This document shows positions 2,356 to 11,498 of a stretch of 64,000 nucleotides of DNA, piece after piece. Location: assembly GCF_041248615.1 (NCBI RefSeq), contig NZ_CP158426.1, one strand, 5' to 3'. A program made the translations under genes and the position numbers. The stretch comes from Escherichia coli (GTDB lineage: Bacteria; Pseudomonadota; Gammaproteobacteria; Enterobacterales; Enterobacteriaceae). The notes under the pieces were generated by a model that did not search any database, was not told the origin of the DNA, and was given only the letters and a program-made list of their open reading frames with translations. The stretch's first letter is position 1. Each line of letters opens with the position of its first letter.

Positions 2356-3759
2356 ATGTCTGACCATAATCCACTGACATTAAGACTGAATCTGCGGGAA
2401 AAAATCGCCTATGGTATGGGCGACGTCGGTTCGAATTTAATGCTCTGCATCGGTACTCTGTATCTCCTCAAATTTTATACCGATGAATTAGGGATGCCTG
2501 CTTACTATGGCGGGATTATCTTTCTGGTGGCGAAGTTTTTTACCGCGTTTACCGATATGCTCACCGGATTTTTACTCGACTCGCGGAAAAATATTGGGCC
2601 TAAAGGCAAATTTCGTCCCTTTATTTTATATGCAGCGGTTCCGGCGGCGTTAATTGCAACGCTCCAGTTTATCGCCACCACCTTTAGTTTGCCGGTTAAA
2701 ACGACGATTGCCACCGCACTGTTTATGATGTTTGGACTTTCATACAGTCTGATGAACTGCTCGTATGGTGCGATGATCCCGGCAATTACCAAAAACCCGA
2801 ATGAGCGCGCGCAGCTCGCGGCTTACCGCCAGGGTGGTGCAACCATAGGGCTATTGATTTGTACCGTGGCGTTTATTCCGTTGCAGTCGCTTTTTTCTGA
2901 CTCCACCGTCGGTTATGCCTGCGCGGCACTGATGTTCTCCATTGGTGGCTTTATTTTTATGATGCTGTGCTACAGAGGCGTCAAAGAGCATTATGTGGAC
3001 ACGACGCCAACCGGACATAAAGCCAGTATTCTCAAATCTTTTTGCGCGATATTTCGTAATCCGCCATTGCTGGTTTTGTGCATTGCTAACCTGTGTACCC
3101 TGGCGGCATTTAATATCAAACTGGCGATTCAGGTCTATTACACCCAATATGTGCTGAATGATATTAATTTATTGTCGTGGATGGGATTTTTCAGTATGGG
3201 ATGTATCCTCGTCGGCGTATTACTGGTGCCATTAACTGTAAAATGTTTTGGTAAAAAACAGGTTTATTTAGCTGGCATGGTGCTATGGGCGGTTGGTGAT
3301 ATCCTGAATTATTTCTGGGGAAGTAACTCTTTCACTTTCGTCATGTTCTCTTGTGTCGCCTTTTTTGGCACGGCCTTTGTGAACAGCCTGAACTGGGCGC
3401 TGGTACCAGATACCGTAGATTACGGTGAATGGAAAACCGGTATTCGTGCCGAAGGTTCTGTTTATACCGGTTATACCTTCTTTCGTAAAATTTCTGCCGC
3501 ACTTGCTGGCTTCTTGCCAGGCATTATGCTGACGCAAATCGGTTATGTTCCCAACATCGCGCAAAGTGATGCGACATTACAGGGTTTGCGTCAGCTCATT
3601 TTTATCTGGCCTTGTGCGCTGGCAATTATTGCTGCATTGACGATGGGATTCTTTTACACACTCAATGAAAAACGGTTTGCATTGATTATTGAGGAAATCA
3701 ACCAACGCAAAAATAAAGAGATGGCGACAGAAGAAAAAACAGCTTCCGTAACGTTATAA
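2356..3759 (+). CDS. yihO: GPH-family transporter (sulfoquinovose importer family)
   Basis: ORF track; ATG at 2356 preceded by AAGGAG (2345-2350); protein starts MSDHNPLTLRL. Confidence 0.88.
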   Translation: MSDHNPLTLRLNLREKIAYGMGDVGSNLMLCIGTLYLLKFYTDELGMPAYYGGIIFLVAKFFTAFTDMLTGFLLDSRKNIGPKGKFRPFILYAAVPAALIATLQFIATTFSLPVKTTIATALFMMFGLSYSLMNCSYGAMIPAITKNPNERAQLAAYRQGGATIGLLICTVAFIPLQSLFSDSTVGYACAALMFSIGGFIFMMLCYRGVKEHYVDTTPTGHKASILKSFCAIFRNPPLLVLCIANLCTLAAFNIKLAIQVYYTQYVLNDINLLSWMGFFSMGCILVGVLLVPLTVKCFGKKQVYLAGMVLWAVGDILNYFWGSNSFTFVMFSCVAFFGTAFVNSLNWALVPDTVDYGEWKTGIRAEGSVYTGYTFFRKISAALAGFLPGIMLTQIGYVPNIAQSDATLQGLRQLIFIWPCALAIIAALTMGFFYTLNEKRFALIIEEINQRKNKEMATEEKTASVTL

Positions 3760-3826
3760 ATGTCAATAGCCGCTATTTCCATCCTGGTGGGTGGCGGCCT
3801 CCCTACGTTTAAAAAATGGACTTATT

Positions 3827-4519
3827 ATGAAAAAGATTAATGCAATAATTTTATTATCTTCTCTGACCTCTGCCTCGGTATTTGCTGGCGCATACGTCGA
3901 AAACAGGGAGGCATATAATCTCGCCTCCGATCAGGGCGAGGTTATGCTACGTGTGGGTTATAACTTCGATATGGGCGCGGGTATTATGTTAACCAATACC
4001 TATAACTATCAGCGAGAAGATGAACTAAAACATGGATATAACGAAATCGAAGGTTGGTATCCTTTATTTAAACCAACCGATAAATTAACCATCCAGCCCG
4101 GTGGCTTAATTAATGATAAGAGTATCGGTTCGGGTGGTGCCGTTTATCTGGATGTTAACTACAAATTTACTCCGTGGTTTAACCTGACGGTGCGTAATCG
4201 CTATAACCATAATAATTACAGCTCTACAGATTTGAACGGCGAATTGGATAATAACGACACCTATGAAGTTGGCACCTACTGGAATTTTAAAATCACCGAG
4301 AAATTCTCCTATACATTTGAACCACATTACTTCATGCGAGTAAATGACTTTAATAGCAGCAATGGAAAAGATCATCACTGGGAAATCACTAACACCTTCC
4401 GTTATCGCATTAATGAACACTGGCTCCCTTATTTCGAATTACGCTGGTTAGATCGTAATGTCGAACCGTACCACCGCGAGCAAAACCAGATTCGTATCGG
4501 GACGAAGTATTTCTTCTGA
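3827..4519 (+). CDS. ompL: outer membrane porin OmpL
   Basis: ORF track 3791..4519; ATG at 3827 gives MKKINAIILLSSLTSASVFA signal peptide and a C-terminal aromatic beta-barrel ending (KYFF). Confidence 0.85.
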   Translation: MKKINAIILLSSLTSASVFAGAYVENREAYNLASDQGEVMLRVGYNFDMGAGIMLTNTYNYQREDELKHGYNEIEGWYPLFKPTDKLTIQPGGLINDKSIGSGGAVYLDVNYKFTPWFNLTVRNRYNHNNYSSTDLNGELDNNDTYEVGTYWNFKITEKFSYTFEPHYFMRVNDFNSSNGKDHHWEITNTFRYRINEHWLPYFELRWLDRNVEPYHREQNQIRIGTKYFF

Positions 4520-4528
4520 TGTAAAACT

Positions 4529-4606
4529 GCCGGATGCGGCGAAAACGCCTTATCCGGCCTACGGTTGATACGGTTTCCGTTGGCCGGATTAAGCCACATC
4601 CGGCCA
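4529..4606. repeat. REP / palindromic unit sequences downstream of ompL
   Basis: gccggatgcggcgaaaacgccttatccggcctac matches the REP consensus; a second degenerate palindrome follows. Confidence 0.7.
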
Positions 4607-4610
4607 TTAA

Positions 4611-5876
4611 TTAAGCTTCAGCCGCCAGCATCTCTTTCTTACGTTGGCTAATACGCTTAACCAGCATTACGGAAACCACCGCACCACAGAATGCGAAGCA
4701 GGCCATAATGCCAAACACGATTTTGTAGCCAATAATCCCCGGATTTAAATCCAGAATGTAGCCATACAGACTGAAGCAGAACATCGCCGGGGCGTAACCA
4801 ATAAAGCTACCCAACGCCATCGCCGCGCCTGTTTTATTTTCAGCAATTTTTGCTTCGCCGATAGGTGCAAAAAATACGGCTCGCTGTGTAAAGACTATAG
4901 CGCCAAAGCCCAGCGTACATGCCATCCCTAAATAAACCGGCATACTTTCGTGCGGCAGCATAATCAACAGTACGAGCGCAGCGGTACTGATGATAAAGGT
5001 GTAGCATAGATATTTACTCGGCGATTTCAGGATCTTATCTGAAATCATGCCACCAATCGGTCCACCAATCATTTTCAGACAGTATTGGTTAATGATGCCG
5101 TAAGCCCCCACCAGCGCAACGGGCAATAGATAGATGTTTTTCAGGAATGGAATGAAGAATGTCAGGCCACAGTAAACCGCGTAAACGAAGAAGACGTTGA
5201 AAGCGATAAGCCAGATAGTTTTGTCTTTCAGCACCGAGGTCATACTGGTGTTTTTCGATGCTCCGTCTTCTTTTTTCACCTCAACGGACGGTGCCTCTTC
5301 TTTGTCATTCAGAACAAAGAAAATGATAATGCCTACGGCAATCACAATAAGGGAATAGAACCAGATGCCTGCTTTAAAACCCAATAAGCCACTGCCAAAC
5401 CAGGTAAATACTGCCAACGCAGAAAATGCCACCACGGTATCGACAATGCCACGCCCTGTTTCGAAGAAGCCAAACAACCGACCTTGTTGTTCGCTATTGC
5501 CCAATCGACTTACCGACTTGAGCAAGACCGGCCAGTTCATCATGTCGCAAGTAACGCCAAATAGCGCCCAGACAAAGAGGATGCCCCAATACCCCGGCAT
5601 TGTCGTCAAATAAACACCCAGTAATCCTGTCGCAATGAGTGAGAATGACATGGTGTATCTGCGCGGTAGTTTATCGGCAAAATAAATAGACAGAAAAAAG
5701 CCCACTGTCGTGACAAATGAGTTTACCGACATAGCATTACCAATTTGACCATTGGTCAAATGGAAATATTCCTGCATCGGGATATAAAACGCATCTTTCA
5801 GCGACGGTAATTTATAAATTGTACCGCCACACAATGTTAATAGACTAAATAACGCCCATTTCTTTTTCGTGAGCAT
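4611..5876 (-). CDS. yihN: MFS transporter
   Basis: 421-aa ORF, multi-TM MFS-like; conserved position. Confidence 0.85.
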   Translation of the reverse strand: MLTKKKWALFSLLTLCGGTIYKLPSLKDAFYIPMQEYFHLTNGQIGNAMSVNSFVTTVGFFLSIYFADKLPRRYTMSFSLIATGLLGVYLTTMPGYWGILFVWALFGVTCDMMNWPVLLKSVSRLGNSEQQGRLFGFFETGRGIVDTVVAFSALAVFTWFGSGLLGFKAGIWFYSLIVIAVGIIIFFVLNDKEEAPSVEVKKEDGASKNTSMTSVLKDKTIWLIAFNVFFVYAVYCGLTFFIPFLKNIYLLPVALVGAYGIINQYCLKMIGGPIGGMISDKILKSPSKYLCYTFIISTAALVLLIMLPHESMPVYLGMACTLGFGAIVFTQRAVFFAPIGEAKIAENKTGAAMALGSFIGYAPAMFCFSLYGYILDLNPGIIGYKIVFGIMACFAFCGAVVSVMLVKRISQRKKEMLAAEA

Positions 5877-5977
5877 AACATCCCCTAAGCGATTTTTAAA
5901 ATCACTGTTTTAAAGGCAATAAGATACCGACCATTCATATGGAATGGTTTTATTAACTGCGTATGAGTTAAAACTTA

Positions 5978-6958
5978 TTAGTGGTTCAGAAGATGGTTTG
6001 CCTCTTGTTTGATTTGTTGTAGTACGTTACGCACATGATTTATCTGATTAATTGCATCTTCTTTTTCTTTACGTAACCGCGCATCCAGTAAATGATTTTC
6101 TGGCAATGGTGTTTCACTCATCTGGCGATAAGGGATCCACGGATTATCATCTTCGTCTTCAAAGCGGAACGCCGGCGCATAGTAATCAACCTCTTCTTCC
6201 AGGCCATATGCCGTCACCTGCGGCTCATCATCACCCAGGCAGATAAGGTGCGTTAATAACGCTTTGAACGGCATATCACCCTGACCTGAAATACAGGCTT
6301 TATGACCCAGGCCACCCTCTTCTTTAACGATCAAGGCATCTTTGATATGGACCTGGGTAATATGCGGTGCCATCGTTTTTAAAGCGTCGATGGGATGCTC
6401 ATTTGCATTGATCATGTTCGCAAAATCAAACAGTAAGGAAAGAGATTCCATCTTACTTTCTTTGACCAGCGACACCAGCTCATGGCTTTTTAAATCTTCA
6501 TGCTGTTCGATCGTAAAAGTCAGGCCGCTGTCCTGATACGTTTCCCGTACATAGGCAATGTCGTTAGCGATGATCGATAATACGTCGCGCAAATTACCTT
6601 CATAACGTGGATAAAAACGTACGGACGATGCCCCAGTTTTCAACGCAATGGCGACGGCTTCGTCAATAGATGCCTTATCTGAAGCGCTGGTTTCAATATG
6701 AATATCAAGGTTCAGACGGCGGGCTTTATCCCCAAAGGCAGAGAGTTCTTTATCGTCCATATTACCAAGAGAAAAACGCTCGCCATCTAGAACATGGATT
6801 TTGACGCCACGTAGATTATTTTCACTTGCGATATCAAGTAAATCAGCAGGCAACACTCTTTCCAGCCGCATATTTAAATGAAAGGCATAAGCATGTAAAT
6901 AAAGAGGAAGAGTGTCGACACGTTGTAGAATCTTTCTTGCGTTATTTATTGTCACCAT
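5978..6958 (-). CDS. yihM: sugar phosphate isomerase/epimerase family protein
   Basis: 326-aa ORF; conserved position. Confidence 0.8.
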   Translation of the reverse strand: MVTINNARKILQRVDTLPLYLHAYAFHLNMRLERVLPADLLDIASENNLRGVKIHVLDGERFSLGNMDDKELSAFGDKARRLNLDIHIETSASDKASIDEAVAIALKTGASSVRFYPRYEGNLRDVLSIIANDIAYVRETYQDSGLTFTIEQHEDLKSHELVSLVKESKMESLSLLFDFANMINANEHPIDALKTMAPHITQVHIKDALIVKEEGGLGHKACISGQGDMPFKALLTHLICLGDDEPQVTAYGLEEEVDYYAPAFRFEDEDDNPWIPYRQMSETPLPENHLLDARLRKEKEDAINQINHVRNVLQQIKQEANHLLNH

Positions 6959-6965
6959 AAAACAC

Positions 6966-7676
6966 CTACAGATTAATGATGAGGTCTACGGCCTCAAATC
7001 GCCAATATTCAATATCTATCTGGACAATATTGCCTTGCTGGTCGGCGCGATGCTTTTCAATTAAGATCGCTGGCATACCCGCAGAACCGCCAAGATACTT
7101 GCTGATATCGCCCGGCATTCTGACGGGTTTGAAAATCAATTTTTTTACTACCGTCTCTTTTTGGTAGCACTTTTCCCAGACTGCAGAAAATGAGTGGTTG
7201 TCAAGTTGTTCAATAAAACCCGGAGCAACTTCAGGATTAATATATGTTTCGTGATAGAAAACTTTATGTCCTTCCAGCGCCCCCCAGCCGGTGATGCGAT
7301 AGAGTTCAGTTGATGGTGTCACTGCAATCAGTGGCGCGAGCGTCTCGGGAATATCGCTGGTACGGTTTTTCTCGGTAAACCCCCAGGAAGGCTCTCGTCC
7401 TTGCTCAATTGCGGCCCGCTGAAAGCTCGCTGACAGCTCCGGACTGTAATTAAATCGCGGCTGGGTCACGAACCACCCCTTACGATCCTTACGGAAGATT
7501 TTGGATTCTGCCTCGAGGTTCAACAACGCCTGGCGCAGCGTCATACGTTTAATGCCCAGCAGTTCTCCCAGCTCTCTTTCTGAAGGGAGTTTTCCACCCG
7601 GCGTGGTGATGCCATCTTTCAACCACCGATCCAGTTTCTCTTTTGCATTTTCTACGGTGGATTGATTCTCCGCCAT
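6966..7676 (-). CDS. yihL: GntR-family transcriptional regulator
   Basis: 236-aa ORF; N-terminal HTH (ERELGELLGIKRMTLRQAL); conserved position. Confidence 0.8.
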   Translation of the reverse strand: MAENQSTVENAKEKLDRWLKDGITTPGGKLPSERELGELLGIKRMTLRQALLNLEAESKIFRKDRKGWFVTQPRFNYSPELSASFQRAAIEQGREPSWGFTEKNRTSDIPETLAPLIAVTPSTELYRITGWGALEGHKVFYHETYINPEVAPGFIEQLDNHSFSAVWEKCYQKETVVKKLIFKPVRMPGDISKYLGGSAGMPAILIEKHRADQQGNIVQIDIEYWRFEAVDLIINL

Positions 7677-7892
7677 TGTTTAATCCTTTTGGTTTAAACC
7701 AGATGAAGCATCTTACGCTTACGCCAAAAAAGAAAGCAATTAACGGTGTATGACTTTGCAGATAATTGTGACAAAGCTCTCTATTGACGTAATCACAGAC
7801 TTATAAGGGAGATACTCGCATTGGTGTGCGCTCACGACAGGTAAAAAAAAACCTGCCAGCGATGGCAGGTTTTTTATAACTAAAAAACGAAA

Positions 7893-9716
7893 TTAATCGT
7901 CTTTCGGTGCGCGGTTGGCGCGACGACGATCGTTTTCCGTCAGGTGACGTTTACGAATACGGATAGAGGTCGGAGTCACTTCTACCAGTTCGTCATCATC
8001 GATGAACTCCAGAGCTTGTTCCAGAGTCATGCGGATAGGCGGAACCAGAACAACGGCTTCGTCAGTACCGGAAGCACGCATGTTGGTCAGTTTCTTACCG
8101 GTCAGGCAGTTTACAGTCAGGTCGTTAGAGCGGCTATGAATACCGATAATCTGACCTTCGTAAACTTCTGCACCGTGACCGAGGAACAGCTTACCGCGAT
8201 CCTGCAGACCGAACAGCGCGAACGCTACCGCTTTACCCTGACCGTTAGAGATCAGTACGCCGTTCTGACGCTGACCCACTTCACCCGGACGTACGTCGTC
8301 GTAGTGGCTGAAGGTGGAGTACAGCAGACCCGTACCAGAAGTCATGGTCATGAACTCAGAACGGAAGCCAATCAGACCACGGCTTGGGATCACGTAGTCG
8401 AGACGTACGCGGCCTTTACCGTCTGGATTCATGTTTTTCAGGTCGCCTTTACGTTCGCCCAGCGCCTGCATCACAGAACCCTGATGCTGTTCTTCAACGT
8501 CCAGCGTCACGTTTTCATACGGCTCTTGTTTACGACCGTCGATTTCACGGAAGATTACTTTCGGACGGGATACCGCCAGTTCGAAACCTTCACGACGCAT
8601 GTTTTCGATAAGAACAGACAGGTGCAGTTCGCCACGACCAGAAACGCGGAACGCATCGGCGTCTTCGGTTTCTTCTACGCGCAGCGCAACGTTGTGTACC
8701 AGTTCTTTGTTCAGACGATCCAGGATCTGACGAGACGTTACGAACTTACCTTCTTTACCGCAGAACGGCGAGGTGTTAACGCAAAAGAACATAGAAACGG
8801 TCGGCTCATCAACGGAGAGTGCCGGCAGCGCTTCAACGTTTTGCGTGTCGCAAACGGTGTCAGAAATGTTCAGTTCGCCCAGGCCCGTGATCGCCACGAT
8901 ATCGCCAGCTTCCGCCAGATCGGTTTCAATACGTTCCAGACCGAGGTGGCCCAGCACTTTACCGACTTTCGCGTTACGGGTTTTGCCTTCGCTATCGATG
9001 ATAGTGACCTGCTGGTTCGGCTTCACTTTACCGCGCTTGATGCGGCCAATGCCGATAACGCCAACATAGCTGTTGTAATCGAGCTGAGAAATCTGCATCT
9101 GGAACGGACCGTCAAGGTCAACGTCCGGCGCAGGAACGTGGTCAACAATCGCCTGATACAGCGGGGTCATGTCTTCCGCCATATCTTCGTGGTCCAGACC
9201 CGCGATACCGTTCAGCGCAGAAGCGTAAACGATCGGGAAGTCCAGCTGCTCGTCGGTCGCGTCGAGGTTAACGAACAGATCGAATACCTGATCCACAACC
9301 CAATCAGGACGCGCGCCAGGGCGGTCAACTTTGTTGATAACAACAATCGGCTTCAGGCCGTAAGCAAACGCTTTTTTGGTTACGAAGCGCGTTTGCGGCA
9401 TCGGGCCGTCAAATGCGTCAACCACCAGCAGCACTGAGTCTACCATGGACATTACACGTTCAACTTCACCACCGAAGTCGGCGTGCCCCGGGGTATCAAC
9501 GATGTTGATACGGTAATCATTCCATTTGATAGCGGTGTTTTTCGCGAGGATGGTAATCCCACGCTCTTTCTCCAAATCGTTGGAGTCCATCACGCGCTCT
9601 TGGGTTTCGGCACGAGAGTCGAACGTACCGGATTGTTGGAGCAGCTTGTCTACCAGGGTGGTTTTACCATGGTCTACGTGCGCGATGATGGCGATATTAC
9701 GCAATTTTTCGATCAC
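7893..9716 (-). CDS. typA: ribosome-associated translational GTPase BipA/TypA
   Basis: 607-aa ORF; GTPase motifs AHVDHGKTT and DTPGH; EF-G-like architecture. Confidence 0.95.
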
Positions 9717-9867
9717 AACTTTGCCTCAGGCATTAGAAATAGCGCGTTATTGTACACGGATTAATCGCACTACAAAACAGGATCACAAACATCCTCCGCA
9801 AACAAGTATTGCAGAGTCCCTTTGTGATCGCTTTCACGGAGCATAAAAAGGGTTATCCAAAGGTCAT

Positions 9868-9916
9868 TGCACCAATATGGTGCTTAATGTTTCCATTGAA
9901 GCACTATATTGGTGCA
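9868..9916. promoter_or_regulatory. NtrC (NRI) enhancer binding sites upstream of glnA
   Basis: tgcaccaatatggtgc (9868-9883) and gcactatattggtgca (9901-9916) match the TGCACC-N-GGTGCA dyad. Confidence 0.6.
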
Positions 9917-9988
9917 ACATTCACATCATGGTGCAGCCCTTTTGCACGATGTTAAGCATGATAACGCCTTTTAGGGGCAATTTAAAAG

Positions 9989-10005
9989 TTGGCACAGTTT
10001 TCGCT
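9989..10005 (+). promoter_or_regulatory. sigma-54 promoter glnAp2
   Basis: ttGGcacagttttcGCt: GG at 9991-9992 and GC at 10003-10004 with canonical -24/-12 spacing, about 85 bp upstream of the glnA ATG. Confidence 0.65.
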
Positions 10006-10088
10006 TTATCTTTTTTACGGCGACACGGCCAAAATAATTGCAGATTTCGTTACCACGACGACAATGACCAATCCAGGAGAGTTAAAGT

Positions 10089-11498
10089 ATGTCCGCTGAA
10101 CACGTACTGACGATGCTGAACGAGCACGAAGTGAAGTTTGTTGATTTGCGCTTCACCGATACCAAAGGTAAAGAACAGCACGTCACTATCCCTGCTCATC
10201 AGGTGAATGCTGAATTCTTCGAAGAAGGCAAAATGTTTGACGGCTCCTCGATTGGCGGCTGGAAAGGCATTAACGAATCCGACATGGTGCTGATGCCAGA
10301 CGCATCCACCGCAGTGATTGACCCGTTCTTCGCCGATTCTACCCTGATTATCCGTTGCGACATCCTTGAACCTGGCACCCTGCAAGGCTATGACCGTGAC
10401 CCGCGCTCTATTGCGAAGCGCGCCGAAGATTACCTGCGTTCCACTGGCATTGCCGACACCGTACTGTTCGGGCCAGAACCTGAATTCTTCCTGTTCGATG
10501 ACATCCGTTTCGGATCTTCTATCTCCGGTTCCCACGTTGCTATCGACGATATCGAAGGCGCATGGAACTCCTCCACCCAATACGAAGGTGGTAACAAAGG
10601 TCACCGTCCGGCAGTGAAAGGCGGTTACTTCCCGGTTCCGCCGGTAGACTCTGCTCAGGATATTCGTTCTGAAATGTGTCTGGTGATGGAACAGATGGGT
10701 CTGGTGGTTGAAGCCCATCACCACGAAGTAGCGACTGCTGGTCAGAACGAAGTGGCTACCCGCTTCAATACCATGACCAAAAAAGCTGACGAAATTCAGA
10801 TCTACAAATATGTTGTGCACAACGTAGCGCACCGCTTCGGTAAAACTGCGACCTTTATGCCAAAACCGATGTTCGGTGATAACGGCTCCGGTATGCACTG
10901 CCACATGTCGCTGTCTAAAAACGGCGTCAACCTGTTCGCAGGCGACAAATACGCAGGTCTGTCTGAGCAGGCGCTGTACTATATTGGCGGCGTAATCAAA
11001 CACGCGAAAGCGATTAATGCCCTGGCAAACCCGACCACCAACTCTTACAAGCGTCTGGTCCCGGGCTACGAAGCACCGGTAATGCTGGCTTACTCTGCGC
11101 GTAACCGTTCTGCGTCTATCCGTATTCCGGTGGTTTCTTCTCCGAAAGCACGTCGTATCGAAGTACGTTTCCCGGACCCGGCGGCTAACCCGTACCTGTG
11201 CTTTGCTGCCCTGCTGATGGCCGGTCTTGACGGTATCAAGAACAAGATCCATCCGGGCGAAGCAATGGACAAAAACCTGTATGACCTGCCGCCGGAAGAA
11301 GCGAAAGAGATCCCACAGGTTGCTGGTTCTCTGGAAGAAGCACTGAACGAACTGGATCTGGACCGCGAGTTCCTGAAAGCCGGTGGCGTGTTCACGGATG
11401 AAGCGATCGATGCGTACATCGCTCTGCGTCGCGAAGAAGATGACCGCGTGCGTATGACTCCGCATCCGGTAGAGTTTGAGCTGTACTACAGCGTCTAA
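10089..11498 (+). CDS. glnA: glutamine synthetase
   Basis: 469-aa ORF starting [24 protein letters not shown]. Confidence 0.97.

What the first reader, a model, noticed from the sequence alone, without database searches (positions are those of the whole stretch)
3827..7676. ompL-yihN-yihM-yihL module beside the sulfoquinovose cluster has no assigned substrate
yihQ/yihP/yihO belong to the sulfoquinovose catabolic cluster. The adjacent porin (ompL), MFS transporter (yihN), sugar-phosphate isomerase/epimerase-like enzyme (yihM) and GntR-family regulator (yihL) form a compact unit whose physiological substrate is, to my knowledge, not established. The regulator sits next to typA and may control the divergent module.
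Basis: inference. Interest (0 to 1): 0.35.

Follow-up and report, generated by a model that had tools for sequence, protein, structure and literature searches.

The report
Orphan yihLMN sugar-like uptake operon
Next to the E. coli sulfoquinovose genes sits a separate, self-repressed three-gene unit (regulator YihL, enzyme YihM, transporter YihN) whose nutrient is still unknown; the neighbouring porin gene ompL belongs to the sulfoquinovose genes instead.

Summary
ompL (3827-4519, +) is the last gene of the published sulfoquinovose cassette ompL-yihOPQRSTUVW and is induced on sulfoquinovose. yihL>yihM>yihN (7676 down to 4611, - strand) is one co-directional operon. It is not divergent from its regulator.

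No published substrate for yihLMN was found, so that part of the claim stands.

New here:
- The strongest published YihL ChIP-exo peak maps onto a perfect palindrome, TGGTTTAAACCA (7690-7701), just after a predicted promoter.
- That exact 12-mer lies before almost every yihL orthologue checked, from Enterobacterales to Aeromonas, Photobacterium, Neisseriaceae and Acinetobacter.
- A CRP-like site sits at a fixed distance upstream of the palindrome.
- The regulator-enzyme-transporter cassette occurs in at least 12 different genomic neighbourhoods, and is gained and lost independently of the sulfoquinovose genes.
- YihM is a confident xylose-isomerase-like TIM barrel in a very small family with no characterised close relative.
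- YihN is a remodelled relative of organophosphate antiporters.

Accessory genes elsewhere (RidA, a HisN-like phosphatase, PhnS-like binding proteins, MocR regulators) hint at an amino- and/or phospho-substituted sugar-like substrate. That hint is inference only.

Verdict: an ordinary type of catabolic operon, truly orphan, and now readily testable.

The parts
3827..4519 (+). ompL, a KdgM-family outer-membrane porin. It is the last gene of the sulfoquinovose cassette and is NOT part of the yihLMN unit.
   Evidence: PF06178 300 bits and NF007434 471 bits against a cutoff of 288. PMC12608037 defines the cassette as ompL-yihOPQRSTUVW and reports ompL at log2FC 7.29 on sulfoquinovose.
4520..4610 (.). 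Convergent ompL/yihN spacer made of REP-type palindromic units. It probably ends both transcripts.
   Evidence: The sequence holds GCCGGATG...CATCCGGC units. It folds at -42.3 kcal/mol, z -4.6. A sub-threshold match to naRNA4, which I take to be a REP-derived family (own knowledge), scores 38 bits against a gathering score of 59.5.
4611..5876 (-). yihN, an MFS transporter and third gene of the operon. It is a distant, remodelled relative of the organophosphate:phosphate antiporters.
   Evidence: MFS_1 95 bits. A family profile matches only GlpT (E 1e-9, full length) and SLC37A4 among solved structures. GlpT R45, R269 and H165 align with S/P/A, Y and R in YihN. The gene sits next to the YihM gene in 62 of 82 loci.
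5877..5977 (-). yihM-yihN spacer of 101 nt with no operator copy and no significant structure.
   Evidence: No match to the operator in this spacer with up to 2 mismatches. Fold z-score -1.4. No Rfam match.
5978..6958 (-). yihM, a xylose-isomerase-like TIM-barrel enzyme and the only enzyme of the cassette.
6966..7676 (-). yihL, a GntR/HutC-type (UTRA domain) repressor and first gene of the operon.
   Evidence: GntR 70 bits and UTRA 77 bits. Its closest curated family is PhnR at 183 bits, below the cutoff of 297. The closest solved relatives are NagR/YvoA and DasR. The top ChIP-exo peak lies at its own promoter.
7690..7701 (.). YihL operator, the perfect palindrome TGGTTTAAACCA.
   Evidence: It is the only exact copy in the 64-kb window. 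It lies inside the published ChIP-exo footprint, which converts to window 7687-7710 with signal/noise 60. The same 12-mer lies 13-31 nt before the called start of nearly all yihL orthologues.
7710..7739 (-). Predicted sigma-70 promoter of yihLMN: -35 TTGCTT (7734-7739), an 18-nt spacer, and -10 TAAGAT (7710-7715). The inferred start is about 7703-7704, so the operator covers roughly +2 to +14.
   Evidence: Read directly from the sequence. A TTG... -35 element and a TA...T -10 element recur at the same spacing in other genera. The consensus scan did not list it, so this is inference.
7767..7782 (-). CRP-like site AGAGAGCTTTGTCACA, centred about 71 nt upstream of the inferred start (a class I position).
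   Evidence: It matches 8 of the 10 specified bases of TGTGA-N6-TCACA. A site scoring 7-9 of 10 is centred 72-76 nt before the operator in all 21 gammaproteobacterial loci checked. Binding was not tested.
7846..7875 (-). typA/bipA intrinsic terminator, which separates typA from the yihLMN promoter.
   Evidence: A 13-bp stem followed by a U-run, -18.7 kcal/mol, z -6.1. It overlaps the Rfam STnc370 match at 7840-7908.

Best explanation
yihL-yihM-yihN is a self-contained, substrate-inducible uptake-and-conversion operon. It is unrelated in function to the neighbouring sulfoquinovose cassette, to which ompL belongs.

Proposed mechanism:
- Without inducer, the HutC-type repressor YihL sits on the palindrome TGGTTTAAACCA. 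This lies immediately downstream of a CRP-assisted sigma-70 promoter in the typA-yihL spacer, so YihL shuts off its own operon. Binding is shown by published ChIP-exo; repression and the CRP role are inferred.
- When the nutrient or its product binds the UTRA domain, YihL leaves the DNA.
- YihN, an MFS carrier distantly related to the organophosphate:phosphate antiporters but with a rebuilt binding site, then imports the compound (inferred).
- YihM, a metal-dependent xylose-isomerase-like TIM barrel, converts it in a single enolisation-type step (isomerisation, epimerisation, or isomerisation coupled to elimination) into a metabolite that existing pathways can use (inferred from fold and from the one-enzyme architecture).

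The substrate is not identified. My best guess is a small sugar-like compound carrying an amino group and/or a phosphate group, for example an amino-sugar or ketosamine (phosphate). This rests on accessory genes in other lineages and is inference only; I would put it at roughly 40%.
For: **Operon and regulation**
- A strong typA terminator lies upstream.
- The top YihL ChIP-exo peak has signal/noise 60, against about 5 for the two other sites. It lies at K-12 (older coordinate version) 4058436-4058459, which is -34 to -11 of the yihL ATG, or window 7687-7710.
- The footprint contains the only exact TGGTTTAAACCA in the window.
- The identical 12-mer lies 13-31 nt before the called yihL start in 41 of the 54 loci in which my ORF clustering called a yihL orthologue. 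A further 10 hold the site within or at the start of an over-extended ORF call, 6 of them as the variant TGGTTTATACCA. These include Aeromonas, Photobacterium and Neisseriaceae; the site also lies before yihL copies in Acinetobacter and Marinobacterium that the ORF caller missed.
- Flanking sequence is not conserved.
- Marinobacterium and Oceanospirillaceae have four tandem copies, and a Rhodobacterales genome has two.
- A CRP-like site sits at a fixed offset in 21 of 21 loci checked.

**Independence from the sulfoquinovose (SQ) cassette**
- The ompL-to-yihL stretch is contiguous in 3485 of 5426 complete E. coli genomes, whereas yihLMN is present in 4238.
- Strain WB61 keeps the whole long SQ cassette but has a clean 3065-bp deletion of window 4677-7741.
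- Raoultella and Pseudocitrobacter have typA-yihLMN with no SQ genes. The cassette occupies at least 12 unrelated neighbourhoods.
- The literature defines the SQ cassette as ompL through yihW.

**The genes are functional**
- dN/dS is about 0.02-0.06 where dS is not saturated.

**Enzyme class**
- The AlphaFold model has pLDDT 95.7.
- A distant family member lies between an FGGY kinase and a class II aldolase.

**Substrate hints**
- RidA lies inside the operon in Photobacterium and next to YihM in Proteus.
- A HisN-like phosphatase (255 bits against a cutoff of 275) lies directly after YihM in alpha-proteobacteria. In Marinobacterium it lies in the divergent operon that shares the operator-bearing spacer.
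- PhnS-like binding proteins and MocR regulators accompany YihM in alpha-proteobacteria.
- A Na/Pi-cotransporter-PhoU protein lies beside YihM in Pseudogulbenkiania.
- YihL is closest to PhnR. Salmonella FraR is 45% identical to PhnR. By my own recollection, the effectors of PhnR and FraR are amino-phosph(on)ate compounds.
- The only solved relatives of YihN are GlpT and SLC37A4.
Against: - No inducer, substrate or reaction has been tested by anyone, as far as I could find.
- YihN lacks both signature arginines of the organophosphate antiporters.
- YihL lacks the two arginines that I recall binding the sugar phosphate in NagR: R133 and R135 align with glycines. This weakens the phosphate idea.
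- The accessory genes differ between lineages, so the family may not act on one substrate. Three paralogous cassettes coexist in some Citrobacter and Buttiauxella genomes.
- The promoter hexamers and the CRP site are sequence predictions only. The consensus scan did not list this promoter.
- The cassette is absent from about a fifth of E. coli genomes, so it is dispensable.
- Secondary sources report that deleting yihL raises tryptophan titre by 16% and call YihL a repressor of tryptophan synthesis. My model can explain this only as an indirect effect.
Confidence: 0.6

Rival explanations
1. yihLMN, together with ompL, is an accessory branch of sulfoquinovose or sulfosugar catabolism. For example, it might take up and convert a second sulfosugar, or a sulfonate product such as sulfolactaldehyde or a DHPS-related compound.
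For: The genes lie directly beside the SQ cassette in E. coli and some Citrobacter. YihM belongs to a sugar isomerase/epimerase fold class. YihN looks like a carrier for anionic substrates.
Against: - The two units vary independently in E. coli. Strain WB61 has the SQ cassette without yihLMN, and about 750 genomes have yihLMN without a contiguous ompL.
- The cassette occurs in at least 12 neighbourhoods without SQ genes, including Aeromonas, Photobacterium, Serratia and Morganella.
- It has its own repressor, operator and terminator-insulated promoter.
- The authors of the SQ transcriptome define the cassette as ompL-yihW. yihL, yihM and yihN do not appear in the held part of their table of differentially expressed genes. 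That table may be truncated, so this last point is weak.
Confidence: 0.07
2. The cassette scavenges an aminophosphonate or a simple amino-organophosphate (2-aminoethylphosphonate-like, phosphoethanolamine-like or a glycerophosphodiester) as a phosphorus or nitrogen source. In this reading YihM acts on the phosph(on)ate-bearing carbon skeleton, or works as a phosphodiesterase.
For: - YihL's best curated match is the 2-aminoethylphosphonate regulator PhnR, at 183 bits.
- The binding proteins next to YihM in alpha- and beta-proteobacteria best match PhnS.
- A HisN-like phosphatase and a Na/Pi-cotransporter-PhoU protein are neighbours.
- An MFS carrier related to GlpT, named AepP, is a proven 2-aminoethylphosphonate transporter (PMC8316502).
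- The xylose-isomerase-like superfamily includes the phosphodiesterase endonuclease IV.
Against: - All these matches fall well below the family cutoffs: PhnR 183 against 297, and PhnS 56-71 against 310-395.
- PhnR-likeness is not specific. The fructose-asparagine regulator FraR is 45% identical to PhnR.
- No PhnW, PhnX, PhnA or C-P lyase genes accompany the cassette.
- YihM is structurally nearer to the sugar isomerases and epimerases than to endonuclease IV.
- The promoter carries a CRP-like site. I did not look for a Pho box.
- YihN lacks the phosphate-binding arginine pair.
Confidence: 0.15
3. The cassette is a plain rare-sugar salvage unit. YihN imports an uncharged rare ketose or aldose, and YihM epimerises or isomerises it into a common sugar. 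The amino and phospho hints from other lineages would then be irrelevant to the enterobacterial cassette.
For: - The nearest characterised folds are ketose 3-epimerases, IolI and an isomerase.
- A one-enzyme pathway fits an epimerase that feeds an existing route.
- Paralogous cassettes with slightly different operators (TGGTTTATACCA) suggest stereoisomeric substrates.
- The CRP-like site is typical of sugar operons.
Against: - Among solved structures, the transporter's only relatives carry organophosphates.
- RidA, the HisN-like phosphatase, MocR regulators and PhnS-like binding proteins recur around YihM.
- Sequence identity to any epimerase is only 11-20%.
Confidence: 0.12
4. YihL is mainly a trans-acting regulator of other pathways, for example aromatic amino-acid synthesis as claimed in strain-engineering work. 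In this reading yihM and yihN are incidental or cryptic passengers.
For: Secondary sources state that a yihL deletion raised L-tryptophan titre by 16.3%, and they call YihL a repressor of tryptophan biosynthesis. ChIP-exo lists two further weak sites, near yqcC and yifB.
Against: - The own-promoter peak is 12-fold stronger than the other two sites (60 against about 5), and neither of those is a trp or aro gene.
- The operator, yihL and yihM travel together across classes of bacteria.
- The genes are under strong purifying selection.
- The primary paper was not in the library, so the claim could not be examined.
Confidence: 0.04

Closest known systems
NagR(YvoA)/DasR-type HutC repressors with dre-like operators
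   Same: YihL has the same GntR winged-helix plus UTRA architecture, and NagR/YvoA and DasR are its closest solved relatives. By my recollection of the DasR site TGGTCTAGACCA, its operator has the same TGGT-N4-ACCA palindromic form. It autoregulates a small catabolic operon.
   Different: The central bases differ (TTAA). The two arginines that I recall binding the sugar phosphate in NagR align with glycines in YihL. The effector is unknown.
PhnR (Salmonella 2-aminoethylphosphonate regulator) and FraR (fructose-asparagine regulator)
   Same: PhnR is by far the best curated family match for YihL: 183 bits, against no more than 51 bits for any other family. FraR is 45% identical to PhnR. By my own recollection, both sense compounds that carry an amine and a phosph(on)ate group.
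   Different: The score is below the PhnR cutoff of 297, so YihL is not a PhnR. No phnSTUV/phnWX or fraBDAE genes are present.
frl operon of E. coli (fructoselysine: FrlR regulator, FrlA transporter, FrlC TIM-barrel epimerase, FrlB deglycase, FrlD kinase)
   Same: By my own knowledge of that operon (not tested here), it also combines a HutC-type repressor, a transporter and a xylose-isomerase-like TIM-barrel enzyme that acts on an amino-substituted ketose.
   Different: yihLMN has no kinase and no SIS-domain deglycase. Its transporter belongs to a different family. The similarity of YihM to FrlC was not measured.
Ketose 3-epimerases, IolI and the Art22 isomerase (xylose-isomerase-like TIM barrels)
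   Different: Sequence identity is only 14-20%. YihM has an extra beta-hairpin (residues 207-222) and a long C-terminal helix (288-325). It also has invariant H153, E154, K206, R265 and S281, which known subfamilies do not explain. All curated subfamily models score far below their cutoffs.
Organophosphate:phosphate antiporters (GlpT, UhpT, SLC37A4) and the 2-aminoethylphosphonate permease AepP
   Same: These are the only solved structures matched by a YihN family profile, and the GlpT match runs the full length. AepP shows that this clade can carry amino-phosphonates.
   Different: Identity to GlpT and UhpT is 17-20%. GlpT R45 aligns with S/P/A, R269 with Y, and H165 with R. Invariant K22, K27, D111, E139, R142 and R332 suggest a different binding site.

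Membership tests
GntR family, HutC subfamily (YihL) | N-terminal GntR winged-helix domain plus C-terminal UTRA effector domain | tested here: met
   PF00392 scores 70.2 bits (cutoff 27) and PF07702 scores 76.8 bits (cutoff 23.8). NagR/YvoA and DasR are the closest solved chains.
GntR family, HutC subfamily (YihL) | Binds a short palindromic operator near the regulated promoter | tested here: met
   The published ChIP-exo peak (signal/noise 60) maps onto the perfect palindrome TGGTTTAAACCA at 7690-7701. The palindrome is conserved before yihL orthologues across several bacterial classes.
PhnR equivalog (TIGR03337) | Score at or above the curated cutoff, and linkage to phnSTUV/phnWX | tested here: not met
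   183.3 bits against a cutoff of 296.75. No phn genes lie in any of the 80 loci examined.
Xylose-isomerase-like TIM barrel, AP_endonuc_2 (YihM) | Pfam match and (beta/alpha)8 fold | tested here: met
Xylose-isomerase-like TIM barrel, AP_endonuc_2 (YihM) | Conserved acidic/His metal site (Glu-Asp-His-Glu) | tested here: inconclusive
   E151, D178 and H204 are invariant in 25 family members. The fourth position (E254, by my own numbering) is Glu in most members but Gln in the four most distant ones. The correspondence to metal ligands is inferred from alignment; no coordinates were inspected.
Characterised TIM-barrel subfamilies (IolE, UlaE/SgbU-type L-ribulose-5-P 3-epimerase) | Score at or above the curated cutoff | tested here: not met
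   IolE scores 17 bits against 290, and PRK13210 scores 17 bits against 200.
Organophosphate:phosphate antiporter family (YihN) | Curated family score, and the arginine pair that binds phosphate (GlpT R45 and R269) | tested here: not met
   TIGR00881 scores 72 bits against 408. R45 aligns with S/P/A and R269 with Y, both in MAFFT and in profile alignments. GlpT and SLC37A4 are nevertheless the only solved relatives, so the relation is distant.
Sulfoquinovose (sulfo-EMP) cassette: membership of yihLMN | Co-inheritance with yihOPQRSTUVW | tested here: not met
   Presence and absence are independent in E. coli. The cassette occurs without SQ genes in many genera.
Sulfoquinovose (sulfo-EMP) cassette: membership of yihLMN | Induction by sulfoquinovose or control by CsqR | tested here: inconclusive
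   yihL, yihM and yihN do not appear in the held supplement of the SQ RNA-seq paper, whereas ompL and yihO-W do. The held table may be incomplete. CsqR binding was not examined.
Sulfoquinovose (sulfo-EMP) cassette: membership of ompL | Induction by sulfoquinovose, and position in the cassette | tested here: met
   Published read counts are 0/0 on glucose against 25/13 on SQ, with log2FC 7.29. ompL lies co-directionally 67 nt after yihO. Its transport substrate has not been shown biochemically.

The most novel reading that the evidence does not exclude
YihM may found a new functional subfamily of the xylose-isomerase-like superfamily that catalyses a reaction not yet described for this fold. 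One example would be a cofactor-independent deaminating isomerase or deglycase acting on an amino-sugar or ketosamine (phosphate), with RidA clearing the imine product. In that case yihLMN would be a one-enzyme route for a gut and marine metabolite not currently counted among E. coli nutrients.
Probability: 0.2. Interest if true: 0.6.

Novelty: new member of a known kind. Interest (0 to 1): 0.3.

Why it matters
About a third of E. coli K-12 genes still lack a tested function. yihLMN is one of the cleanest remaining cases: one repressor, one enzyme and one transporter.

The operator is now mapped to the base and conserved from Enterobacterales to marine gamma- and alpha-proteobacteria. That makes deorphanisation practical. 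A yihL-promoter reporter, or a YihL thermal-shift or gel-shift assay, can be screened directly against compound libraries. The substrate-binding proteins linked to YihM in Ensifer and Marinobacterium offer an independent way to find the ligand.

If the substrate proves to be an amino- or phospho-substituted sugar, it would add a nutrient and possibly a new reaction type. If it is a rare sugar, the result is routine.

The analysis also corrects the idea that these genes extend the sulfoquinovose pathway.

Tried and rejected
- **Published assignment.** Eight of the nine full-text searches looked for one. I read the papers that mention yihL, yihM or yihN. None assigns a substrate. The uses found were: yihL::kan as a linked marker, dye-uptake phenotypes of a yihN deletion, and a second-hand claim about tryptophan titre.
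- **A second operator before yihM or yihN.** None was found with up to 2 mismatches.
- **An RNA element in the spacers.** Nothing relevant turned up: no riboswitch or leader, only STnc370 at the typA terminator and REP-like matches. The yihM-yihN spacer fold is not significant.
- **YihN as a canonical organophosphate antiporter.** Rejected at residue level.
- **YihL binding a sugar phosphate as NagR does.** The NagR arginines are not conserved.
- **A link between YihN and a glycerophosphodiester-uptake family (GlpU), recalled from memory.** No paper in the library connects them, so the idea was dropped.
- **Contexts of very distant homologues.** One contig was too short to help. The others gave mixed contexts: sugar-phosphate in one case and amino-acid ABC transporter in another.
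- **Gene calling.** My first ORF-based calls failed in high-GC loci and were redone with a GC3 filter. Some yihL genes were still missed and were recovered by translating the gap upstream of yihM.

Full report
**1. What is in the sequence**

The window is E. coli chromosome; positions 3500-8000 are 100% identical to NZ_OW967178. The ORF list and the RefSeq annotation of that record give this layout:
- yihQ' (partial at the window edge), yihP and yihO on the + strand
- ompL at 3827-4519 (+)
- yihN at 4611-5876 (-), yihM at 5978-6958 (-), yihL at 6966-7676 (-)
- typA/bipA at 7893-9716 (-), then glnA

- OmpL is a KdgM-family porin.
- YihN is an MFS carrier.
- YihM is a xylose-isomerase-like TIM barrel.
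- YihL is a GntR regulator with a UTRA domain.

yihL, yihM and yihN point the same way, with gaps of 7 and 101 nt. They lie downstream of typA and are convergent with ompL. Nothing is divergent from the regulator.

**2. ompL belongs to the sulfoquinovose (SQ) cassette**

[quoted passage not shown] It reports ompL among the most strongly SQ-induced genes, with 0/0 reads on glucose against 25/13 on SQ and log2FC 7.29 (PMC12608037). The authors do not include yihL, yihM or yihN. These names do not occur in the held supplement, though that text may be truncated.

**3. yihLMN is a separate unit**

Within E. coli:
- The ompL-to-yihL stretch is contiguous in 3485 of 5426 complete genomes.
- yihLMN alone is present in 4238 genomes and absent from about 1000.
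- Strain WB61 retains the entire long SQ cassette including ompL, but has a clean 3065-bp deletion of window 4677-7741. This removes the promoter core, yihL, yihM and all but the last 66 nt of yihN.

Across species:
- I scanned one genome for each of 100,044 species with a YihM family profile. This gave 220 relatives, of which 80 loci were fetched.
- My ORF clustering found the YihM gene next to a YihN-type carrier in 62 of 82 loci and a YihL-type regulator in at least 54. More yihL copies were recovered by translating gaps.
- The three-gene order yihL>yihM>yihN sits in at least 12 unrelated neighbourhoods: Buttiauxella, Serratia, Morganella, Edwardsiella, Aeromonas, Photobacterium, Uruburuella and others.
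- Raoultella and Pseudocitrobacter have typA-yihLMN with no SQ genes.
- Some Citrobacter and Buttiauxella genomes carry two or three paralogous cassettes.

dN/dS between E. coli and Citrobacter or Raoultella is 0.02-0.06 where synonymous sites are not saturated. These are maintained, functional genes.

**4. Regulation**

*The published binding site.* Gao et al. 2021 tagged YihL and list three ChIP-exo sites. One has signal/noise 60.5 and lies at 4058436-4058459 beside yihL; the other two score about 5 (PMC8464067 supplement). Their cspA site shows that they used the older K-12 coordinate version. In that version yihL starts at 4058470, which I derived from the current record and a 1977-bp offset recalled from memory. 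The peak is therefore -34 to -11 of the yihL ATG, or window 7687-7710.

*The operator.* That stretch reads TGCTTCATC-TGGTTTAAACCA-AAA. The 12-mer is a perfect palindrome and the only exact copy in the 64-kb window. By my recollection it has the TGGT-N4-ACCA form of the DasR and NagR operators, and NagR/YvoA and DasR are YihL's closest solved relatives.

*Conservation.* The identical 12-mer lies 13-31 nt before the called start of yihL in 41 of the 54 loci where an orthologue was called. Another 10 hold the site, or the one-base variant below, within or at the start of an over-extended ORF call. These include Aeromonas, Photobacterium and Neisseriaceae. The flanking sequence diverges freely. 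The site also precedes yihL copies in Acinetobacter and Marinobacterium that the ORF caller missed.
- One paralogue group uses TGGTTTATACCA.
- Marinobacterium and an Oceanospirillaceae genome have four tandem copies 19-27 nt apart. These lie in the divergent spacer between a Dpp-type ABC operon that ends in a HisN-like phosphatase and yihL-yihM-(NCS1 permease).
- A Rhodobacterales genome has two copies before yihL-yihM-(HisN-like phosphatase).

*Promoter and CRP (predicted).* Upstream in E. coli I read a plausible promoter: -35 TTGCTT at 7734-7739, an 18-nt spacer, and -10 TAAGAT at 7710-7715. This places the operator at about +2 to +14, a repressor position. A CRP-like site, AGAGAGCTTTGTCACA (7767-7782), is centred about 71 nt upstream of the inferred start. 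A site scoring 7-9 of 10 lies 72-76 nt before the operator in all 21 gamma-proteobacterial loci checked. The promoter and the CRP site are predictions; the consensus scan did not list this promoter.

*Insulation from typA.* A strong intrinsic terminator (7846-7875, z -6.1) closes typA. No operator copy, Rfam element or significant structure lies in the yihM-yihN spacer.

**5. The enzyme, YihM**

- YihM has very few relatives. Only 46 cluster representatives reach E<=1e-30 among 1.84 billion, many of them fragments. About 25 are full-length clusters at 29-45% identity.
- An alignment of 25 members has these invariant residues: R13, R114, E151, H153, E154, E160, D178, N181, H204, K206, Q247, R265, S281 and E298.
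- The AlphaFold model is confident: pLDDT 95.7, pTM 0.93. It shows a TIM barrel with an extra beta-hairpin and a long C-terminal helix.
- Every curated subfamily model scores far below its cutoff.

Homology therefore gives only the reaction class: metal-assisted proton abstraction next to a carbonyl group, which covers isomerase, epimerase, dehydratase and lyase activities.

A distant member (36% identity) lies between an FGGY kinase and a class II aldolase under a DeoR regulator, a sugar-phosphate context. Another lies beside an amino-acid-type ABC system and an aminotransferase-domain protein.

**6. The transporter, YihN**

- Curated models give only weak matches: PgtP at 72 bits against a cutoff of 408.
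- A profile of 13 YihN orthologues matches only GlpT (E 1e-9, full length) and the glucose-6-phosphate exchanger SLC37A4 among all solved structures.
- GlpT's phosphate-binding R45 and R269 align with S/P/A and Y, and H165 aligns with an invariant Arg.

YihN is thus a distant offshoot of the organophosphate antiporters with a rebuilt binding site. AepP, an MFS carrier related to GlpT, carries 2-aminoethylphosphonate (PMC8316502). This shows that such offshoots can take amino-phosph(on)ates. The relation of YihN to AepP was not tested.

**7. Hints to the substrate (inference only)**

Genes that accompany YihM elsewhere:
- A RidA imine/enamine deaminase lies inside the operon in three Photobacterium species and next to YihM in Proteus.
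- In many alpha-proteobacteria, a HisN-like phosphatase (255 bits against a cutoff of 275) lies directly after YihM. There the transporter is an ABC system whose binding protein best matches the 2-aminoethylphosphonate binder PhnS (56-71 bits, weak), and the regulator is of the MocR type.
- A Na/Pi-cotransporter-PhoU protein lies beside YihM in Pseudogulbenkiania.
- An iron-dependent alcohol dehydrogenase is a neighbour in Acinetobacter and Pragia. A choline-dehydrogenase-like GMC enzyme is a neighbour in Ensifer and relatives. An agmatinase is a neighbour in one Rhodobacteraceae genome.

YihL's best curated match is PhnR: 183 bits, below the cutoff, against no more than 51 bits for any other family. 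The Salmonella fructose-asparagine regulator FraR is 45% identical to PhnR (PMC5351497). Likeness to PhnR therefore does not point specifically to phosphonates. By my own recollection, both relatives sense compounds bearing an amine and a phosph(on)ate group.

Points against a phosphate group:
- YihN lacks the arginine pair.
- YihL lacks the arginines that I recall binding the sugar phosphate in NagR.

I therefore rate 'a sugar-like compound with an amino and/or phosphate substituent' as the leading guess, at about 40%. It is not a finding.

**8. Literature status**

- The K-12 RefSeq record still says 'putative' for all three products.
- YihL is listed among transcription factors of unknown function in 2016 and 2022.
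- YihN is called a transporter of unknown function in 2021; its deletion lowers uptake of many dyes.
- Only seven papers in the library contain both yihM and E. coli, and none assigns a role.
- Two 2025 papers cite a study in which yihL deletion raised tryptophan titre by 16.3% and call YihL a repressor of tryptophan synthesis. I could not read the primary paper. The ChIP-exo data show no trp or aro target, so I treat the effect as indirect.

It is met only at the level of regulon membership for ompL.

**9. Verdict**

It is partly wrong: ompL does not belong to the unit, the layout is not divergent, and the operator lies before yihL and has already been detected by ChIP-exo.
- The object is an ordinary kind of system, a repressor-controlled and probably catabolite-sensitive uptake-plus-one-enzyme operon, with an unknown substrate and an unusually small enzyme family.
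- It is a new member of a known kind. It is of modest interest, but now very easy to test.

Noticed in passing
window 7840-7908 (- strand): An Rfam match to the enterobacterial sRNA candidate STnc370 (54.9 bits against a gathering score of 54). It covers the last codons of typA/bipA and its terminator, so it may be a 3'-UTR-derived small RNA of typA.
   Followed up: partly
window 4677-7741: E. coli WB61 carries a clean 3065-bp deletion. It removes the yihL promoter core, yihL, yihM and all but 66 nt of yihN, while the full sulfoquinovose cassette is kept. About 1000 of 5426 complete E. coli genomes lack yihLMN. The ompL side of the WB61 junction is only 93% identical to the window, against 99.3% on the typA side, which suggests recombination between lineages.
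   Followed up: partly
window 4520-4610: The convergent ompL/yihN spacer consists of REP-type palindromic units. It folds strongly (-42 kcal/mol, z -4.6) and gives a sub-threshold match to the nucleoid-associated RNA family naRNA4.
   Followed up: partly
L063 7125-7209, L066 7116-7197, L076 7128-7212 (Marinobacterium and Oceanospirillaceae): Four tandem copies of the 12-bp YihL operator, spaced 19-27 nt apart, lie in a divergent spacer. On one side is a Dpp-type ABC operon ending in a HisN-like phosphatase; on the other is yihL-yihM-NCS1 permease. This is a much more elaborate control region than the single site in enterobacteria.
   Followed up: partly
L048, L052, L053, L054, L056, L057 (Citrobacter, Buttiauxella, Entomohabitans): A paralogous yihLMN cassette (about 60% identical YihM) uses a one-base operator variant, TGGTTTATACCA. 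It coexists with the main cassette in the same genome, for example Citrobacter sp. R56 (L011 and L048). This suggests related but separately sensed substrates.
   Followed up: no
window 7767-7782 (- strand): A CRP-like site (AGAGAGCTTTGTCACA) lies at a class I distance from the predicted yihL promoter. Its position is conserved in 21 of 21 gamma-proteobacterial loci. I did not find it described in the papers read.
   Followed up: partly
yihL (window 6966-7676); literature: Two 2025 papers cite a strain-engineering study in which yihL deletion raised L-tryptophan titre by 16.3%, and they describe YihL as a repressor of tryptophan biosynthesis. This does not match the ChIP-exo target list, and the primary paper was not available.
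   Followed up: partly
L005/L006 (Proteus mirabilis) 7486-10975: In Proteus the YihL regulator is replaced by a divergent YheO-like (PAS_6 plus HTH_22) regulator. The gene order is RidA, MFS carrier, YihM, and no TGGTTTAAACCA site is present. The regulator has been swapped around a conserved enzyme-transporter core.
   Followed up: no
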